A stretch of 64,000 nt of DNA, from the NCBI GenBank assembly GCA_947165145.1, contig CAMUZG010000006.1, positions 5,937-69,936 on the forward strand, written 5' to 3'. Made by a program: the position numbers and the translations under genes. Source of the DNA: an uncultured Selenomonadales bacterium. GTDB taxonomy: Bacteria > Bacillota > Negativicutes > Selenomonadales > Selenomonadaceae. Every line of letters begins with the position of its first letter. The first letter of the stretch is position 1. Below, piece by piece: positions 8,701 to 62,500 of the stretch. The notes under the pieces are model-generated. The model was given only the letters and a program-made list of their open reading frames with translations. It did no database searches and was not told the DNA's origin.

Positions 8701-9219
8701 AATGTCGACGTAATCGGCGATAAGTTCGCGTGCATGTTCAAAATCGTCGTGACGAATGGCGCGGGGAATTTCTCCGGCAACACAGGCACTCAACGCAATC
8801 AACCCGTCGTGATGTTGACGCAGAAAATTTCTGTCGACACGCGGACGGTAATTAAAGCCATCGGTTGCGGCGTGCGACGCAATCTTGACCAAATTTTTGT
8901 AGCCGTCATTGTTTTCGGCGAGCAGCACCAGATGAAAATATTTTTTGCCGTCGTACGTTTCGAGTTCGTCAATCGGTGCCGCCGAAACGTATACTTCGCA
9001 ACCGATAATCGGTTTAATGCCGCGCTCAACCGCCGCCTTGTAGAAATTAACGACGCCGTACATTGTGCCGTGGTCGGTTATCGCGATTGCGTTCATGCCG
9101 AAATTTTTTGCCGCGTCAAGCAAGTCACCGATACGTGCCGCGCCGTCGAGCAAGCTGTATTCCGTGTGAACGTGCAGGTGAACAAAATTTTTCTCAATCA
9201 CGTGACAACCTTCTAACAA
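5770..9219 (-). CDS. dnaE: DNA polymerase III alpha subunit DnaE, carrying an in-frame repeat-derived insertion
   Basis: PHP domain FVHLHVHTEYSLLDGA, palm/fingers blocks GPGRGSAAGS, DIDVD, YRPGPLGSGMVDNFI, YQEQVMQ, and a C-terminal OB fold. 1149 aa. The true start is probably GTG 9201 ((M)IEKNFVHLH) rather than TTG 9219. Confidence 0.93.
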   Translation of the reverse strand: MLEGCHVIEKNFVHLHVHTEYSLLDGAARIGDLLDAAKNFGMNAIAITDHGTMYGVVNFYKAAVERGIKPIIGCEVYVSAAPIDELETYDGKKYFHLVLLAENNDGYKNLVKIASHAATDGFNYRPRVDRNFLRQHHDGLIALSACVAGEIPRAIRHDDFEHARELIADYVDIFGQGNFFLEIQNHGLDDEAKVRYALKKFSAEFNIPLVATNDSHYIRREDAAFHDVLLCVGTGKKIDDTNRLKFQSDEFYLRSAEEMRELFADVPEACDNTLKIAERCNVTLEFGKFLMPEFTLPDDRDAADYLRELCNKKIRDRYAVITDAVKERLNHELEIIHGMGYDGYFLIVHDFIDFARRKKIPVGPGRGSAAGSIVAYILGITELDPLKYGLLFERFLNPERVTLPDIDVDLCYVRRDEVINYVRERYGADKVSQIATFGTMAAKAAIRDVARVLNVSFNDSSELVRKIPNLPNITLDEALKMSNDLREDYANNPDTRRVIDFARKLEGLPRHTSVHAAGVVISKIPLNEIVPLQISNGTLITQFDKDAVEELGLLKMDFLGLRTLTVIAETFANIKASRGIELDASQIPLRDEKTSAMLTAGDTGAVFQMESAGMTALVKELRPECFEDLIPTVALYRPGPLGSGMVDNFIRIRNLELGIRNEQDNSTFHIPNSSLKCLHPKLEPILRETFGVILYQEQVMQIVQTLAGFTLGQADILRRAMGKKKASILMAQKENFLRGCEVNGVEKSLAEKIFDLLSHFADYGFNKSHSAAYGLLAWQTAYLKAHYPAEYMAAMMSAANDPYKIANYIDIARRLGVKVLPPDVNVGEAHFTVDGDTIRIGLACVKSLGESALDSIITERRRGGKFKSPIDFCGRLDPKSVSRRCVENLIKCGAFDSLDNRRKALFDAVNSMSTVGSNRSRERAHGAISLFDSDELDRANMIIPDAKENWTKRALLQNEKETLGFYLSGHPLNEFRVQMSGLKSSRDIDEKFLGKRVKVGGVVAEFRKFSTKNGELMATITLEDFVGTVNVTLFPNVYKSFEKIAKKNEVVVVTGRVDTADDSFQIVAEKCIKADDYTPDFWLMIPAQIDTPETLDALKKILDGTNPGDGQIYLNQRGTWRKISKKVVFGPEMFKQIKTLLGEENIRLY
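7201..7268. repeat. Heptad-periodic palindromic repeat (GGAATTR family), copy inside the dnaE ORF
   Basis: GGAATTAGGAATGTGAAATGTGGAATT - atcttgttc - ATTCCTAATTCCTAATTCCAAATTCCTAATTC. Translated in frame as RIRNLELGIRNEQDNSTFHIPNSS. Confidence 0.85.
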
Positions 9220-9256
9220 TTAGGAATTGGGAATTAGGAATGTGGAATTGAATTCG
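9215..9256. repeat. GGAATTR heptad repeat, one-armed copy between holB stop and dnaE start
   Basis: AACAATTAGGAATTGGGAATTAGGAATGTGGAATTGAATTC. Confidence 0.85.
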
Positions 9257-9268
9257 GTTGGAGCAATT

Positions 9269-10273
9269 TCAGCCGATTATTTTTTTCAATCGGAACAAGT
9301 AAGCTTCGGCGAGCAGTCGCAGGTTCGCATTCGATTTCAATCGCCGATAAAATTCAGCGCCCGTTTCGAGCATTGCAAAAATTTTTCGTTCGGGAATTTT
9401 TATTTCGTGCAGACGCGGCGCAAGATCGAAGTTGTGCGGCTCCAAGACTTCAGCAAAGCAGATGTCGCGCAGAATTTTTTGCACGTGCGTCAAGAAGTCG
9501 GCGAACATTTCCCGCGACCAATCAGCGACCGTTGCGCCCAGCGTGAAGATGTCTTCGTTCGTGAGCTTTGCGCGTGAAATTTTTTCCAACGTGTCGAGTG
9601 CCGTCTCGCGAAGTTGTGCGCCGCCCGAATCTTTGAGTTTCAACGCCCGCCCGAAACTGCCGTCAGCGATGACCGATAATCTTGTCGCCTCGGATTGTTC
9701 AACGCCCCGTTCGATGAGCGCGTCGCGAATCTGAGCGGGTGTCAGCTTGTCGAAATTGATTGTCCTGCACCGCGAACGAATCGTCATGAGCAGACTCGAG
9801 CGGCTCGCCGTCAGCAAAATAAAAATCGTTTGACTCGGTGGTTCCTCAATCGTTTTGAGCAGACAATTTGCCGCCGCATTGTTCATGAGTTCCGCACCGT
9901 CGAGAATAATCACGCGCCGCGACGAATTTATAGGACGCAATGACGCTTCCGCTTGCATGTCGCGAATTTGTCCGATTTTGATGTTGCGGGCAGTCTTGGT
10001 CGTTTCAGCCTCGACAATGTAAAAATCGGGGTGCGTGTGCGCCGCGACGAGCCGACAACTTTCACAGACGCCGCAAGCCTCGCCGTCAATCGGATTGTCG
10101 CACAGCAGAGCCGCCGCACAGATTTCAGCCGCTAAACGTTTGCCGATACCTTCAATGCCCGCGAAAATCACAGCGTGCGGAAATTTTTCCTCGGCAATAT
10201 TCTTGAGTAAATGTTCAATGGTCGCCGCGTTCCCGAACAAATTGCGCTTCTTCAATTTGAAGTCGTTCATCAC
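9269..10273 (-). CDS. holB: DNA polymerase III delta' subunit
   Basis: AAA+ clamp-loader-like: HAVIFAGIEGIGKRLAA, zinc module CGVCESC, RVIILDGAELMNNAAANCLLKTIEEPP, SRC motif TIRSRC. Confidence 0.85.
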   Translation of the reverse strand: MMNDFKLKKRNLFGNAATIEHLLKNIAEEKFPHAVIFAGIEGIGKRLAAEICAAALLCDNPIDGEACGVCESCRLVAAHTHPDFYIVEAETTKTARNIKIGQIRDMQAEASLRPINSSRRVIILDGAELMNNAAANCLLKTIEEPPSQTIFILLTASRSSLLMTIRSRCRTINFDKLTPAQIRDALIERGVEQSEATRLSVIADGSFGRALKLKDSGGAQLRETALDTLEKISRAKLTNEDIFTLGATVADWSREMFADFLTHVQKILRDICFAEVLEPHNFDLAPRLHEIKIPERKIFAMLETGAEFYRRLKSNANLRLLAEAYLFRLKKIIG

Positions 10274-10725
10274 ATGTAAAGGTCGACGAGCATGCCGCGA
10301 ATTGCATCATGCGCCGCGACGACGTCGAGTTGAGCCGATTGACCGAGCCGAATTTTTTCCGCCATTTCCTCAAGCTTGCTGTCGATTTTGCGGACGGTAG
10401 TGTAAACGCGTTGACGACCCATTCTGTCCCAACCGGCGGACGTGTGCACTTCGTACATATTGCTGACTGCCGCGCCGACGAAATTTTTTATCAACGTGCG
10501 ATATTCTTTGAGTTCTTCGTAAGTCGGGGTTCTGCCGAGACGTGCCGCTTGCTCATCGATTTTTTTGAGCATGGCCTCCATTTCTTCGTGAGAAACGCCT
10601 TCGCTCTGTTGTTCCGCCAATTCGGTCTCGAACGACAATTCTTTATCGCGCGGATGTTCGGTCGCGCCGCGTAAAAGTTCAAACGGGGAAGCAGTTGTTC
10701 CCGCACTGCCGATTTTTACTGCCAT
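10270..10725 (-). CDS. yaaR: YaaR/DUF327 family protein
   Basis: Size and position upstream of holB match the Bacillus yaaR-holB arrangement. GAGGTGA SD before ATG 10725. ATGA overlap with holB. Confidence 0.7.
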   Translation of the reverse strand: MAVKIGSAGTTASPFELLRGATEHPRDKELSFETELAEQQSEGVSHEEMEAMLKKIDEQAARLGRTPTYEELKEYRTLIKNFVGAAVSNMYEVHTSAGWDRMGRQRVYTTVRKIDSKLEEMAEKIRLGQSAQLDVVAAHDAIRGMLVDLYM

Positions 10726-11171
10726 TTTCAATTCACCTCGCCGCCAGTTTATACAATTTTCATTGCAAAAGCAAGAAGAGACTGCCGATTGAACAATCAG
10801 CAATCTCTTCTGAAAAAGGGATCCGAAATGCCGGTTCCCACAAATGTCTAAACCTGCTTACTCGCAGGTGGGTTCCTTAAGCTCGGTATCTGTTACTCGT
10901 CGCGAAGGACAATTCTCCATCTTCCGAAATCAATTCAGGTTCCCTAAAATTTATGTAGGTTAGACATTAATAAAGTCCTCGAACACCCCAGATTTATTCC
11001 TTCTTCGCCAGGAATAATAGCACGAAAAATTTTTTGTTACAAGTCTTGACAAAAAGTCCCGCCGAAAATTTTTGCCGCAATCTTGACAAAGTGACTTGGG
11101 GGGGATAATGAAATATAAATAAGTTTCATTTAACGTAAAGTTTATTCGGTTACTTCAAAGGAGGTACAGCC

Positions 11172-61958: not shown

Positions 61959-62006
61959 TAAAAATTCCTCCTCGCGGTACAAACGACATCAGTCTCCCGC
62001 GGTGTG

Positions 62007-62024
62007 TTAGCTTTTAGCTTTGAG
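62007..62024. repeat. AAAGCTA-type heptads (reverse orientation) between rplK stop and rplA start
   Basis: TTAGCTT TTAGCTT TGAG. Confidence 0.6.
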
Positions 62025-62026
62025 AT

Positions 62027-62452
62027 TTAAGCGACAATCTCGATACCCATTGAACGAGCCGTGCCCTCAATCATGCGTGTAGCAGCCTCAATCGACGCGG
62101 CGTTAAGGTCTTTCATTTTGAGTTCAGCAATCTCTTGAGCTTTGGCGCGGGGCAGTTTGGCGACCTTGTTCTTGTTGGGCTCACCGGACGCTTTCTCGAT
62201 ACCGGCAGCTTTTTTGAGCAGAATGGCAGCGGGCGGCGTCTTCGTGATGAACGTGAACGAACGGTCTTCATAAACCGAGATTTCGACAGGGATAATCAAG
62301 CCAGCTTGCTGAGCCGTGCGGTCATTGAACTCTTTGACGAACGCCATAATGTTGACGCCCGCTTGACCGAGCGCAGGACCTACAGGCGGCGCAGGAGTAG
62401 CTTTACCGGCGGGAACTTGCAGTTTGACGACCTTGGTGACTTTCTTTGCCAT
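62027..62452 (-). CDS. rplK: 50S ribosomal protein L11
   Basis: [36 protein letters not shown]. Confidence 0.95.
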
Positions 62453-62467
62453 AGTTGCACCTCCTTT

Positions 62468-62500
62468 CAACAATTAGGAATTGGGAATTTGGAATTAAAT
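62468..62500. repeat. GGAATTR heptad repeat, one-armed copy in the nusG-rplK spacer
   Basis: AACAATTAGGAATTGGGAATTTGGAATTAAAT. On the mRNA strand it ends 3 nt before the rplK AAAGGAGG. Confidence 0.85.

What the first reader, a model, noticed from the sequence alone, without database searches (positions are those of the whole stretch)
9215..62500. Family of 7-nt-periodic (GGAATTR/GGAATGT)n palindromic repeats at gene boundaries, often directly upstream of Shine-Dalgarno sites
There are eight loci: 7201-7268, 9215-9256, 24876-24910, 27396-27467 (an 8-nt-period variant), 59246-59302, 59981-60032, 61084-61145 and 62468-62500.

Structure:
- They are built from tandem heptads GGAATTA / GGAATGT / GGAATTG.
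- In the full copies these are followed by the reverse-complement heptads TAATTCC, giving 50-70-nt imperfect hairpins.
- Three copies share the same outer end, AACAATT(A/G)GGAATT.

Position relative to start codons:
- Read on the mRNA (minus) strand, that conserved end sits 3-9 nt before the SD of the downstream gene.
- dnaE: ...CCTAATTGTTAGAAGG. rplJ: ...CCCAATTGTTAAAAACGGGAGG. rplK: ...CCTAATTGTTGAAAGGAGG.
- The 27.4-kb variant ends ...CCTAC-AAAAGGAG before the PTS EIICB gene.
- The SIS gene at 59238 starts right at the edge of a copy with no SD.

Interpretation:
- Heptanucleotide tandem repeats (STRRs) are known from heterocystous cyanobacteria, and REP/BIME hairpins from enterobacteria.
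- A heptad-built palindromic element with a fixed relation to ribosome-binding sites in a CodY-type (Firmicutes-like) genome is not something I recognise.
- Possible roles are mRNA 5'-end stabiliser or processing site, translational insulator between coupled genes, or a non-autonomous mobile element.
Basis: seen in the sequence. Interest (0 to 1): 0.72.

Follow-up and report, generated by a model that had tools for sequence, protein, structure and literature searches.

The report
Seven-base repeat hairpins between rumen-bacterium genes
A rumen bacterium (family Selenomonadaceae) carries short blocks of a repeated seven-base unit, usually followed by the mirror-image block, wedged between genes and once inside the essential dnaE gene; this is a new example of a known but still unexplained class of bacterial repeat, not a new kind of ribosome-binding-site element.

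Summary
All eight loci exist as described: 19 matches to GGAATNNGGAATNNGGAAT against 0 in shuffles, and period 7 is the only over-represented repeat length.

- **What it is.** The genome is a rumen Selenomonadaceae. The elements are heptanucleotide simple-sequence repeats (unit GGAAT-K-N), mostly an array followed by its inverse. The closest published case is the (GGGAATC)n inverted pairs of Xanthomonas. Cyanobacterial STRRs and Beggiatoaceae TAACTGA repeats are the same kind.
- **Gained recently.** The rplJ and rplK copies are absent from ten related genomes, whose Shine-Dalgarno (SD) sites are unchanged.
- **Hypervariable.** Near-identical strains differ by whole units.
Copy 7201-7268 lies in frame inside dnaE. 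It replaces 27 nt with 75 nt and is confirmed in two independent assemblies.
- **Wider pattern.** In about 240 loci from many phyla the arms almost always read GGAAT…ATTCC (112:6). The elements sit nearer the upstream stop codon than the next start, avoid divergent promoters, and have no target-site duplication.
- **SD relation.** Closeness to SD sites mainly reflects short operon spacers being filled.

Verdict: a new member of a known kind. How the repeats arise and spread is unresolved.

The parts
7196..7270 (.). Full palindromic copy lying in frame inside dnaE (ORF 5770-9201, minus strand). It encodes RIRNLELGIRNEQDNSTFHIPNSSL.
   Evidence: (-24.7 kcal/mol, z -4.5), 26 and 46: 75 nt replace 27 nt that encode AGKHGRKVR in relatives; identical in two independent assemblies; predicted low-confidence loop.
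9215..9256 (.). Single-arm copy (4 units plus the centre GGAATTGAATTC) in the holB-dnaE spacer. Its outer end lies 3 nt from the dnaE SD (AGAAGG).
   Evidence: no fold; upstream gene is DNA pol III delta'.
24876..24910 (.). Single-arm copy (4 units) between the convergent genes xth (plus strand) and hypD (minus strand). It provides the xth stop codon, TAG 24887-24889.
   Evidence: Invariant in three other strains.
27396..27467 (.). 8-nt-period palindromic variant, (GTAGGTTA)n ... (TAACCTAC/TAATTCCC)n. It fills the spacer between the chromate-transporter stop codon and the PTS EIICB SD.
   Evidence: (-22.2 kcal/mol). Four strains carry four alleles that differ by +/- one 8-nt unit.
59241..59303 (.). 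Full palindromic copy directly after the terminator-like hairpin and T-run of the PTS IIA(gutA)-like gene. It ends at the TTG start of the SIS-domain gene.
   Evidence: (-20.5 kcal/mol, z -4.8). One strain lacks one AATTAGG unit and another has a G>A change.
59981..60032 (.). Asymmetric palindromic copy (4 units against 2) directly after the rplL terminator T-run, about 90 nt before the next gene's SD.
   Evidence: (-21.1 kcal/mol). Two substitutions at heptad positions 6-7 in strain L130.
61078..61155 (.). Full palindromic copy (core 61084-61145) between the L10-leader terminator and the rplJ SD.
   Evidence: -27.2 kcal/mol, z -8.0; about 62 extra nt compared with all 10 relatives; L10 leader at 61141-61269; SD left unpaired.
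62468..62512 (.). Degenerate copy in the nusG-rplK spacer: three good units plus a decayed opposite arm. Its end lies 3 nt from the rplK SD.
   Evidence: no significant fold; spacer 57 nt here against 24-39 nt in 10 relatives.
1928..1969 (.). Second heptad family (CTAAAAG/CTAACAG units) between the relA/spoT-type gene and the next gene, running up to its SD.
52640..52704 (.). Second heptad family: (AAAAGCT)4 with a short inverse arm (AGCTTTC), between the marR-type gene stop codon and the ABC-transporter SD.
62007..62032 (.). Second heptad family (TTAGCTT x3.7) just after the rplK stop codon.

Best explanation
These are local copies of a dispersed family of heptanucleotide simple-sequence repeats. 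The unit is GGAAT-(T/G)-N. Copies are typically a 3-5-unit array, a centre of 0-15 nt, then the inverse array, read as 5'-(GGAATKN)n...(NMATTCC)n-3'. They belong to the class called STRR or heptameric long SSR.

They are a DNA-level repeat with no conserved regulatory role.
1. They arose or were copied into this Selenomonadaceae lineage at places where extra DNA is tolerated. These are the positions immediately after stop codons or terminator T-runs. In tightly packed operons that position is also just in front of the next SD.
2. One copy entered dnaE in frame, in a variable surface loop of the protein.
3. The copies then change quickly by gain or loss of whole units (slippage) and by substitutions at unit positions 6-7.
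4. Inverse arms are probably made or repaired by intrastrand template switching.

When transcribed, full copies form hairpins of -20 to -27 kcal/mol that leave the neighbouring SD unpaired. Any effect on mRNA stability or on translation of the next gene would be incidental.

**Shown:** the repeat statistics, gain relative to related genomes, strain-level unit variation, the arm-polarity rule, the bias towards gene 3' ends, the absence of target duplications, and the dnaE insertion.

**Inferred:** slippage and template switching as the generating processes, and neutrality. How copies reach new sites is unknown, so this overlaps with the mobile-element rival.
For: **Repeat statistics**
- Period 7 alone is over-represented: 11 arrays against 0 expected in the window. 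In 1.53 Mb of fetched loci there are 436 period-7 arrays against 0-14 for other periods (biased by how the loci were selected).
- 19 pattern matches against 0 in shuffles.

**Gain in this lineage**
- The elements at 61084 and 62468 are absent from 10 relatives at about 80% nucleotide identity.
- Those relatives carry different heptad arrays (GGAACTA, AAAGCTA, TAGTAGT/TAGCAAC) in other spacers of the same operon.

**Hypervariability between strains with identical flanking proteins**
- A 7-nt indel and substitutions at positions 6-7.
- Four alleles in four strains at the 8-nt variant.

**dnaE copy**
- 27 nt are replaced by 75 nt in frame. The one TAG that would be in frame reads TTG.
- Present in two independent assemblies.
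- Maps to a length-variable loop.

**Pattern across phyla**
- Arm polarity is 112 convergent against 6 divergent.
- Gene contexts: co-directional 95, convergent 34, divergent 8. Median distance after the upstream stop is 22 nt. Single-arm arrays show no strand bias, 40:31.
- No systematic target-site duplication.

**Match to published descriptions**
- Xanthomonas GGGAATC pairs (PMC4692102).
- The general excess of heptamer SSRs attributed to polymerase slippage (Mrazek 2007, as cited in PMC4679880, and in PMC4692102).
Against: - Slippage alone does not explain three things: why the same GGAAT core recurs in genomes of 23-70% G+C from many phyla, why the arm polarity is almost invariant, or how a 60-75-nt block appears at a site with no visible seed.
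- Copies at different loci share features beyond the heptad. Copies 9215, 61084 and 62468 share the AACAATT end. Copies 9215 and 61084 share the GGAATTGAATTC centre. L211, L236 and L160 share the centre TGACGCGAAAT. A termite-gut family has two internal GC hairpins. This points to copying of whole elements.
- A functional role cannot be excluded without expression data.
- The whole genome was not available, so the census rests on one 64-kb window plus fragments.
Confidence: 0.55

Rival explanations
1. The elements are non-autonomous mobile DNA, comparable to REPINs, MITEs or foldback elements. The heptad arrays would be the arms recognised by an enzyme encoded elsewhere in the genome, for example a single-strand-specific HUH/Y1 transposase that inserts hairpin DNA without duplicating the target. 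Slippage would only remodel copies after insertion.
For: - Clean gains of 40-75 nt at sites with no seed sequence.
- Copies at different loci share ends and centres.
- A composite family with two conserved internal hairpins between heptad arms sits at unrelated flanks in termite-gut contigs.
- Arm polarity of 112:6, as expected for defined element ends.
- Accumulation after stop codons and terminators and avoidance of divergent promoter regions, as for REP and MITE elements.
- Absence of target duplication is compatible with Y1-type insertion. One insertion has a 16-nt flanking direct repeat (L208).
Against: - The outer ends are fuzzy and decay gradually, and unit numbers vary.
- Target nucleotides are replaced rather than simply interrupted: 8 nt at nusG-rplK, about 11 nt at rplA-rplJ and 27 nt in dnaE.
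- Several unrelated heptad units co-occur in one genome and differ between sister species.
- No transposase was seen next to any copy. However, only about 20 window ORFs were scanned and the genome is not available.
- Rehm et al. also found no link to insertion sequences.
Confidence: 0.3
2. The element is a cis-acting RNA device tied to ribosome-binding sites. A hairpin or an unstructured AAUUCC-rich leader placed 3-9 nt upstream of the SD would stabilise the 5' end after processing, insulate translation between cistrons, or act as a standby site.
For: - Three window copies share the same end 3-9 nt from an SD.
- The same ...ATTG-N5-9-GGAGG arrangement occurs in the Selenomonadaceae-like contigs L013, L150, L160, L211, L229, L236 and L239.
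- Hairpins leave the SD unpaired, and single-arm copies are unstructured.
- Heptamer repeats directly upstream of start codons in Beggiatoaceae were interpreted in this way (PMC4679880).
Against: - The copies are absent from the same spacers in all ten relatives, whose SD sites are conserved.
- Copies also lie inside dnaE, between convergent genes, and about 90 nt from an SD.
- Elements are closer to the upstream stop codon than to the next start, and single-arm arrays show no strand bias.
- Sequence and length vary between strains.
- Spacers of 24-50 nt force any insert to lie next to the SD.
Confidence: 0.12
3. The arrays are multivalent binding sites for a protein that reads GGAAT at 7-nt phase on DNA or RNA. 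Candidates are a nucleoid-associated protein or a GGA-binding regulator of the CsrA type.
For: - Positions 1-5 of the unit are conserved and positions 6-7 are free, in many phyla. This looks like a recognition motif.
- Three units (21 bp) span two helical turns (inference).
- MacGregor proposed S1, Csp or CsrA-type binders for TAACTGA repeats.
Against: - No candidate protein was identified.
- There is no strand bias.
- There is no conservation of position between relatives.
- Other heptads with unrelated sequence behave the same way.
Confidence: 0.08
4. The repeats are an assembly or vector artefact.
For: Contigs from short-read assemblies often break inside these repeats (L131, L254, L256, L261, L263).
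Against: The same copies with the same junctions are found in several independent assemblies and samples (ERZ14210020, SRR19524266, SRR17418321, SRR31968883, SRR34657022). The dnaE reading frame is preserved through the insert.
Confidence: 0.01

Closest known systems
Heptameric (GGGAATC)n / (GGGANTN)n repeats of Xanthomonas campestris and X. axonopodis (Rehm et al. 2015, PMC4692102)
   Same: - 7-nt unit containing the GGAAT core.
- Mostly about 4 units.
- 70-75 pairs per genome in convergent inverted orientation, able to form stem-loops.
- About 90% intergenic.
- Close to the end of the upstream ORF (average 28 nt against 160 nt to the next ORF).
- More often between convergent than divergent genes.
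- Not conserved at the same genes in sister species.
- No link to insertion sequences.

(compared)
   Different: - Here the unit has GG, not GGG, so no G-quadruplex is possible.
- The arms usually touch (centre 0-15 nt), giving compact hairpins.
- The host is a Negativicute from the rumen.
- One copy lies in frame inside dnaE.
Cyanobacterial STRR sequences and heptanucleotide long SSRs in general (Mazel 1990; Mrazek 2007; both as cited in PMC4679880 and PMC4692102)
   Same: - Tandem 7-nt units.
- Intergenic.
- Several unit families per genome.
- Strong excess of period 7 over other periods.
- GGAATTG and GGAATGG arrays are common in Nostoc and Oscillatoriales contigs.
   Different: - Cyanobacterial arrays are often much longer (up to tens of units) and mostly unpaired.
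- Here the arrays are short and mostly palindromic.
TAACTGA heptamer repeats of marine Beggiatoaceae (MacGregor 2015, PMC4679880)
   Same: - Heptamer arrays in operon spacers within a few nucleotides of start codons.
- Present inside ribosomal-protein operons.
- Some overlap the upstream stop codon or lie inside ORFs, including an RNA polymerase beta-prime-like gene.

   Different: - Those are direct repeats with a strong forward orientation, and they usually replace a recognisable SD.
- Here the SD is retained, the arrays are mostly inverted pairs, and single-arm arrays show no orientation bias.
REP / BIME / REPIN elements of proteobacteria
   Same: - Short extragenic palindromes.
- Hundreds per genome (inferred here from the density of 8 per 64 kb).
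- Sit after gene 3' ends.
- Form hairpins in mRNA.
- No target duplication.
   Different: - REPs are GC-rich, are not built of tandem units, carry a conserved 5' tetranucleotide, and are linked to a RAYT transposase.
- None of these was found here. The RAYT link could not be tested.
Rickettsia palindromic elements (RPE)
   Same: A palindromic repeat inserted in frame into an essential protein-coding gene. It adds a peptide in a place that the fold tolerates (own knowledge, compared).
   Different: - No sequence relation.
- RPEs are 100-150 nt and are not heptad-built.
- Only one coding insertion was seen here.

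Membership tests
Heptanucleotide SSR / STRR class | Head-to-tail iteration of a 7-nt unit, three or more copies | tested here: met
   Tandem Repeats Finder rows with period 7. 19 pattern matches against 0 expected. 11 period-7 arrays.
Heptanucleotide SSR / STRR class | Period 7 in excess over neighbouring periods in the same genome | tested here: met
   Period 7 gives 11 arrays. Periods 5, 6 and 8-12 give 0-1. Shuffles give 0.
Heptanucleotide SSR / STRR class | Unit-number polymorphism between close strains (slippage) | tested here: met
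   A 7-nt indel in L131. Four alleles differing by single units at 27396-27467 in four strains.
Xanthomonas-type inverted heptamer pairs | Two arrays in convergent orientation close together | tested here: met
   Five of eight window loci are paired. Across all loci, 112 convergent against 6 divergent.
Xanthomonas-type inverted heptamer pairs | Intergenic, nearer the upstream ORF end than the next ORF; rare between divergent genes | tested here: met
   Median 22 nt after the upstream stop against 49 nt to the next start. Convergent 34 against divergent 8 (crude ORF calls).
Xanthomonas-type inverted heptamer pairs | G-tracts of three or more, giving G-quadruplex potential | tested here: not met
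   The units are GGAATTA, GGAATGT and GGAATTG, with GG only.
MITE | Target-site duplication flanking defined terminal inverted repeats | tested here: not met
   In 71 palindromic elements the flanking direct repeats are no longer than in controls, with one exception (L208, 16 nt). Target nucleotides are replaced at three insertions.
REP / REPIN | GC-rich imperfect palindrome with a conserved 5' tetranucleotide (GTAG type) | tested here: not met
   The arms are about 30% G+C and are built of tandem units. Only the 8-nt variant contains GTAG.
REP / REPIN | Cognate RAYT (Y1 transposase) gene flanked by the repeats | not testable with these tools
   The complete genome of this organism is not available.
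Beggiatoaceae TAACTGA-type start-codon repeats | [quoted passage not shown] | tested here: not met
   SD sites are retained next to the copies. No orientation bias.
Described RNA families (Rfam 15) | Match to a curated covariance model | tested here: not met
   No family at any copy. Only a chance match to a plant miRNA hairpin at E = 0.13.

The most novel reading that the evidence does not exclude
GGAAT-core heptad foldback elements would be one pan-bacterial class of small DNA element made or moved by a dedicated, still unknown machinery. They have an almost invariant arm polarity and no target duplication. They occur in genomes from 23% to 70% G+C (Cyanobacteria, Acidobacteriota, Planctomycetota, Bacteroidota, Clostridia, Negativicutes, Xanthomonas). 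Candidate machineries are a hairpin-specific HUH enzyme or a templated repeat-adding polymerase. On this reading the long-noted excess of heptamer repeats in prokaryotes is not a passive by-product of slippage.
Probability: 0.15. Interest if true: 0.8.

Novelty: new member of a known kind. Interest (0 to 1): 0.42.

Why it matters
Heptamer repeats are the most abundant long simple-sequence repeats in many bacteria. Their origin, and the reason for the seven-base period, have been open since 2007.

This window adds a lineage in which the repeats had not been described in the literature searched: rumen Selenomonadaceae, a Negativicute family.

It also gives unusually clean natural experiments:
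- Gains inside the universally conserved nusG-rplKAJL operon, against ten insert-free relatives.
- Allelic series that differ by single units in strains with identical flanking proteins.
- An in-frame insertion into the essential replicase gene dnaE.

The cross-phylum survey made here gives concrete constraints that any mechanism must explain:
- A shared GGAAT core.
- Arm polarity of 112:6.
- A bias towards gene 3' ends.
- No target duplication.

For genome annotation, it warns that such blocks can supply stop codons, add peptide loops and break short-read assemblies.

Tried and rejected
1. **Stop codons in all three frames as the point of the 7-nt period.** Rejected. GGAATTA and TAATTCC create TAG and TAA, but GGAATGT, GGAATTG, GGAATTC and GGAATGC and their complements carry no stop (read directly).
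2. **Target-site duplications.** None as a rule.
3. **Known RNA families.** None found.
4. **Exact look-up of the window's DnaE protein, to find strains.** Not on record. This was solved by looking up the neighbouring 211-aa protein instead.
5. **Literature search for the literal repeat strings.** It returned only Drosophila cloning primers. A search for 'small dispersed repeats' returned nothing usable.
6. **Genome-wide census of the host genome.** Not possible.
7. **Snap-back of a nascent ...GGAATT-3' end as the cause of the arm polarity.** By reasoning, the opposite strand could snap back equally well at ...TAATT-3'. The polarity therefore remains unexplained.
8. **The exact 19-mer in high-G+C soil contigs as evidence of horizontal transfer.** Rejected. 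With positions 6-7 free, about 1 in 64 three-unit windows of any GGAATKN array matches by chance.

Full report
**1. Observation**

All eight loci are in the window as described.
- The pattern GGAATNNGGAATNNGGAAT with up to one mismatch occurs 19 times at seven loci. It occurs 0 times in 100 dinucleotide-preserving shuffles.
- Tandem Repeats Finder lists about twenty period-7 rows.
- A period scan gives 11 arrays for period 7, none expected, and 0-1 for periods 5, 6 and 8-12.
- Five copies are array-plus-inverse-array hairpins: 7201, 27396, 59246, 59981 and 61084, at -20 to -27 kcal/mol as RNA, z -2.6 to -8.
- Three are single arms that do not fold: 9215, 24876 and 62468.
- The quoted shared end AACAATT(A/G)GGAATT and the distances to the SD sites are correct.

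**2. Organism and gene context**

- DnaE homologues are named Selenomonadaceae bacterium, Anaerovibrio, Megamonas, Mitsuokella and Schwartzia.
- Contigs that encode the identical L11 protein come from rumen and gut metagenomes. The window is therefore from a rumen Selenomonadaceae (Negativicutes), about 50% G+C.
- Flanking genes:

| Copy | Position |
|---|---|
| 9215 | between holB and dnaE |
| 24876 | between xth (plus strand) and hypD (minus strand), convergent |
| 27396 | between a chromate-transporter gene and a PTS EIICB gene |
| 59246 | between a PTS IIA(gutA)-like gene and a SIS-domain gene |
| 59981 | between rplL and the PTS IIA(gutA)-like gene |
| 61084 | between rplA and rplJ |
| 62468 | between nusG and rplK |

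- An L10 leader is detected at 61141-61269 (42.2 bits, family threshold 44). Copy 61084 therefore sits between the leader's terminator and the rplJ SD.
- Three full copies (61084, 59981, 59246) each begin directly after a hairpin plus T-run.
- Copy 24876 supplies the xth stop codon.

**3.

- Copy 7201-7268 lies inside dnaE, in frame.
- All 15 aligned homologues (65-83% identity) read FI-AGKHGRKVxxY-LHP. The window reads FI-RIRNLELGIRNEQDNSTFHIPNSSLKC-LHP.
- At nucleotide level, 27 nt are replaced by 75 nt, with no duplication of the target.
- The one unit whose TAG would fall in frame reads TTG.
- The same junction and insert occur in two independent public assemblies, so it is real.
- The site corresponds to E. 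coli Pol III alpha residues about 652-675, where E. coli itself has a longer loop.
- An AlphaFold model puts the insert in a low-confidence coil between two confident helices.
- A second heptad family (CTAAAAG/AAAAGCT) is present at three further spacers.

**4. Comparison with relatives**

- Ten contigs share the identical L11 protein but are only about 80% identical in DNA. Their nusG-rplK spacer is 24-39 nt, against 57 nt here. Their rplA-rplJ spacer lacks the roughly 62-nt block. The SD sites, the L10 leader and the terminators are conserved. These copies were therefore gained in this lineage.
- The relatives have different heptad arrays in other spacers of the same operon:
  - (GGAACTA)3 with an inverse arm after rplK
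  - an (AAAGCTA)n palindrome between rplJ and rplL
  - (TAGTAGT)(TAGCAAC/CAGCCAC)n after rplA
  - AAGAATTAGGAATTAGAAATT between rplJ and rplL
- The tendency to acquire heptad arrays is therefore shared. The individual copies are not.

**5. Comparison with near-identical strains**

- Strains with identical flanking proteins keep the copies at the same sites. Their differences are concentrated in the repeats: substitutions at heptad positions 6-7 and one 7-nt unit fewer at 59246.
- At the 8-nt-period variant, four strains carry four alleles that differ by one unit in either arm.
- The 24876 copy is invariant.
- This is the behaviour of a simple-sequence repeat.

**6. Survey beyond this lineage**

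They came from Cyanobacteria, Acidobacteriota, Planctomycetota, Bacteroidota, Nitrospirota, Chloroflexota, Xanthomonas, rumen Clostridia and Selenomonadaceae.
- A metagenome scan for the exact 19-mer GGAATTAGGAATGTGGAAT also hit its limit at 120 contigs, of 23-70% G+C.
- Most hits extend beyond the pattern, so they are true arrays.
- Arm polarity: of the arrays that have a partner of opposite sense within 200 nt, 112 read GGAAT...ATTCC and 6 read the other way.
- Gene context, using crude ORF calls: 95 between co-directional genes, 34 between convergent genes, 8 between divergent genes, 48 apparently inside ORFs.
- Distances: median 22 nt after the upstream stop codon and 49 nt before the longest possible downstream start.
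- Single-arm arrays show no strand bias, 40:31.
- Flanking direct repeats are no longer than in controls, with one 16-nt exception in L208.
- In these loci, period 7 outnumbers every other period by 30-fold or more. This sample is biased by how it was selected. Most of the other units are one or two changes away from GGAATTN.

**7. Relation to the SD**

- In Selenomonadaceae-like contigs (tetranucleotide correlation of about 0.74 to 0.97 with the window), the element end ...ATTG is repeatedly followed by 5-9 nt and GGAGG. This is seen in L013, L150, L160, L211, L229, L236 and L239.
- These elements also start within a few nucleotides of the upstream stop codon. They simply fill the spacer.
- Folding shows that the SD is left unpaired beside the hairpin. 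Single-arm copies are unstructured.
- Together with the absence of the copies from relatives, the copies elsewhere, and the lack of strand bias, I read the SD proximity mainly as a consequence of spacer geometry and selection against disrupting the SD.
- An incidental effect on mRNA stability or translation is possible but untested.

**8. What is known**

- Rehm et al. 2015 (PMC4692102) describe (GGGAATC)n/(GGGANTN)n heptamers in Xanthomonas:
  - about 185 per genome, mostly four units
  - 70-75 convergent inverted pairs
  - about 90% intergenic
  - 28 nt from the upstream ORF against 160 nt to the next ORF
  - 16% between convergent genes against 7-8% between divergent genes
  - not conserved between sister species
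  - not linked to insertion sequences
- MacGregor 2015 (PMC4679880) describes TAACTGA heptamers within a few nucleotides of start codons in Beggiatoaceae. [quoted passage not shown]
- Both papers cite Mrazek 2007 for the general excess of heptanucleotide repeats and the suggestion that 7 nt matches the polymerase contact.
- The window's elements meet the defining features of this class. They differ from the Xanthomonas case in lacking G-tracts and in having nearly abutting arms.
- They fail the tests for MITE (no target duplication, no fixed ends) and for REP (not GC-rich, no conserved tetranucleotide). The RAYT association could not be tested.

**9. Mechanism**

- Best supported (0.55): a DNA-level heptad repeat family. 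It is gained at tolerated positions after gene 3' ends and remodelled by unit slippage and probably by template switching. It has no conserved function.
- Main rival (0.30, not exclusive): whole elements are copied by an unknown enzyme.
  - For: shared ends and centres at different loci, a composite family with internal hairpins, seedless gains, and the polarity rule.
  - Against: the fuzzy ends, the replaced target bases and the co-existence of unrelated units.
- A dedicated RBS-linked RNA role (0.12) and a protein-binding array (0.08) are less likely.
- An artefact is excluded.
- Still unexplained: why the period is 7, why the GGAAT core recurs across phyla, and why the polarity is almost invariant.

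**10. Verdict**

- This is a new member of a known kind.
- Interest is moderate. It comes from the clean comparative evidence, the dnaE insertion and the cross-phylum regularities, not from a new category of element.

Noticed in passing
window 16175-16531: A perfect (100%) tandem duplication of 178 bp. It covers the codY promoter-like region (TTGACA...TATAAA), the 5' UTR, the SD and the first 12 codons. The first copy would give a short out-of-context ORF. It could be a recent duplication or an assembly artefact. No Rfam family matches it.
   Followed up: partly
window 1928-1969, 52640-52704, 62007-62032: A second heptad repeat family (CTAAAAG / AAAAGCT) sits in three operon spacers. The one at 52.6 kb has a short inverse arm. 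The same unit forms a large palindrome between rplJ and rplL in the related contigs L002, L004 and L008.
   Followed up: partly
L133, L155, L176, L177, L204, L209, L221 (termite-gut metagenome contigs): A composite dispersed element found at unrelated flanks. It consists of a GGAAT heptad arm, the hairpin GTGTGCGC-nnn-GCGCAC, an AT-rich linker, the hairpin GTGAGGC-raa-GCCTCAC, and the inverse heptad arm. It looks like a MITE or REPIN with heptad arms.
   Followed up: no
L208:779-834: The only palindromic heptad element with a long flanking direct repeat: the 16-nt CGGCGTCAACGTGTAA, which includes the upstream stop codon, lies on both sides.
   Followed up: partly
L211:1125-1191, L236:2607-2680, L160:3895-3962, L211:5064-5089: Selenomonadaceae-like elements at different loci share a centre motif, TGACGCGAAAT or close variants. 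In one case it appears in the opposite orientation. This suggests that whole elements are related by copying.
   Followed up: no
window 10816-10997 (minus strand): A 6S RNA gene (56.1 bits, above the family threshold) lies upstream of a DUF327 gene and holB.
   Followed up: no
window 61141-61269 (minus strand): The L10 leader scores 42.2 bits, just under the Rfam threshold of 44. The heptad element abuts its 3' end, which may be why it falls short.
   Followed up: no
window 59238 (minus strand): The SIS-domain gene appears to start at a TTG with no recognisable SD, immediately after the heptad element. The element may have displaced the original ribosome-binding site. The same gene start is called in strain L130.
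   Followed up: partly
protein search: All 120 listed DnaE homologues are 288-723 aa long, including some on contigs of more than 100 kb. No full-length DnaE of about 1150 aa was listed. This is probably a property of how candidates are collected, but split dnaE calls cannot be excluded.
   Followed up: no
window 17374-19437: A 687-aa protein with RTX calcium-binding nonapeptide repeats accounts for the 27-nt tandem repeats at 18997-19143. It is ordinary coding repetition and unrelated to the heptads.
   Followed up: no
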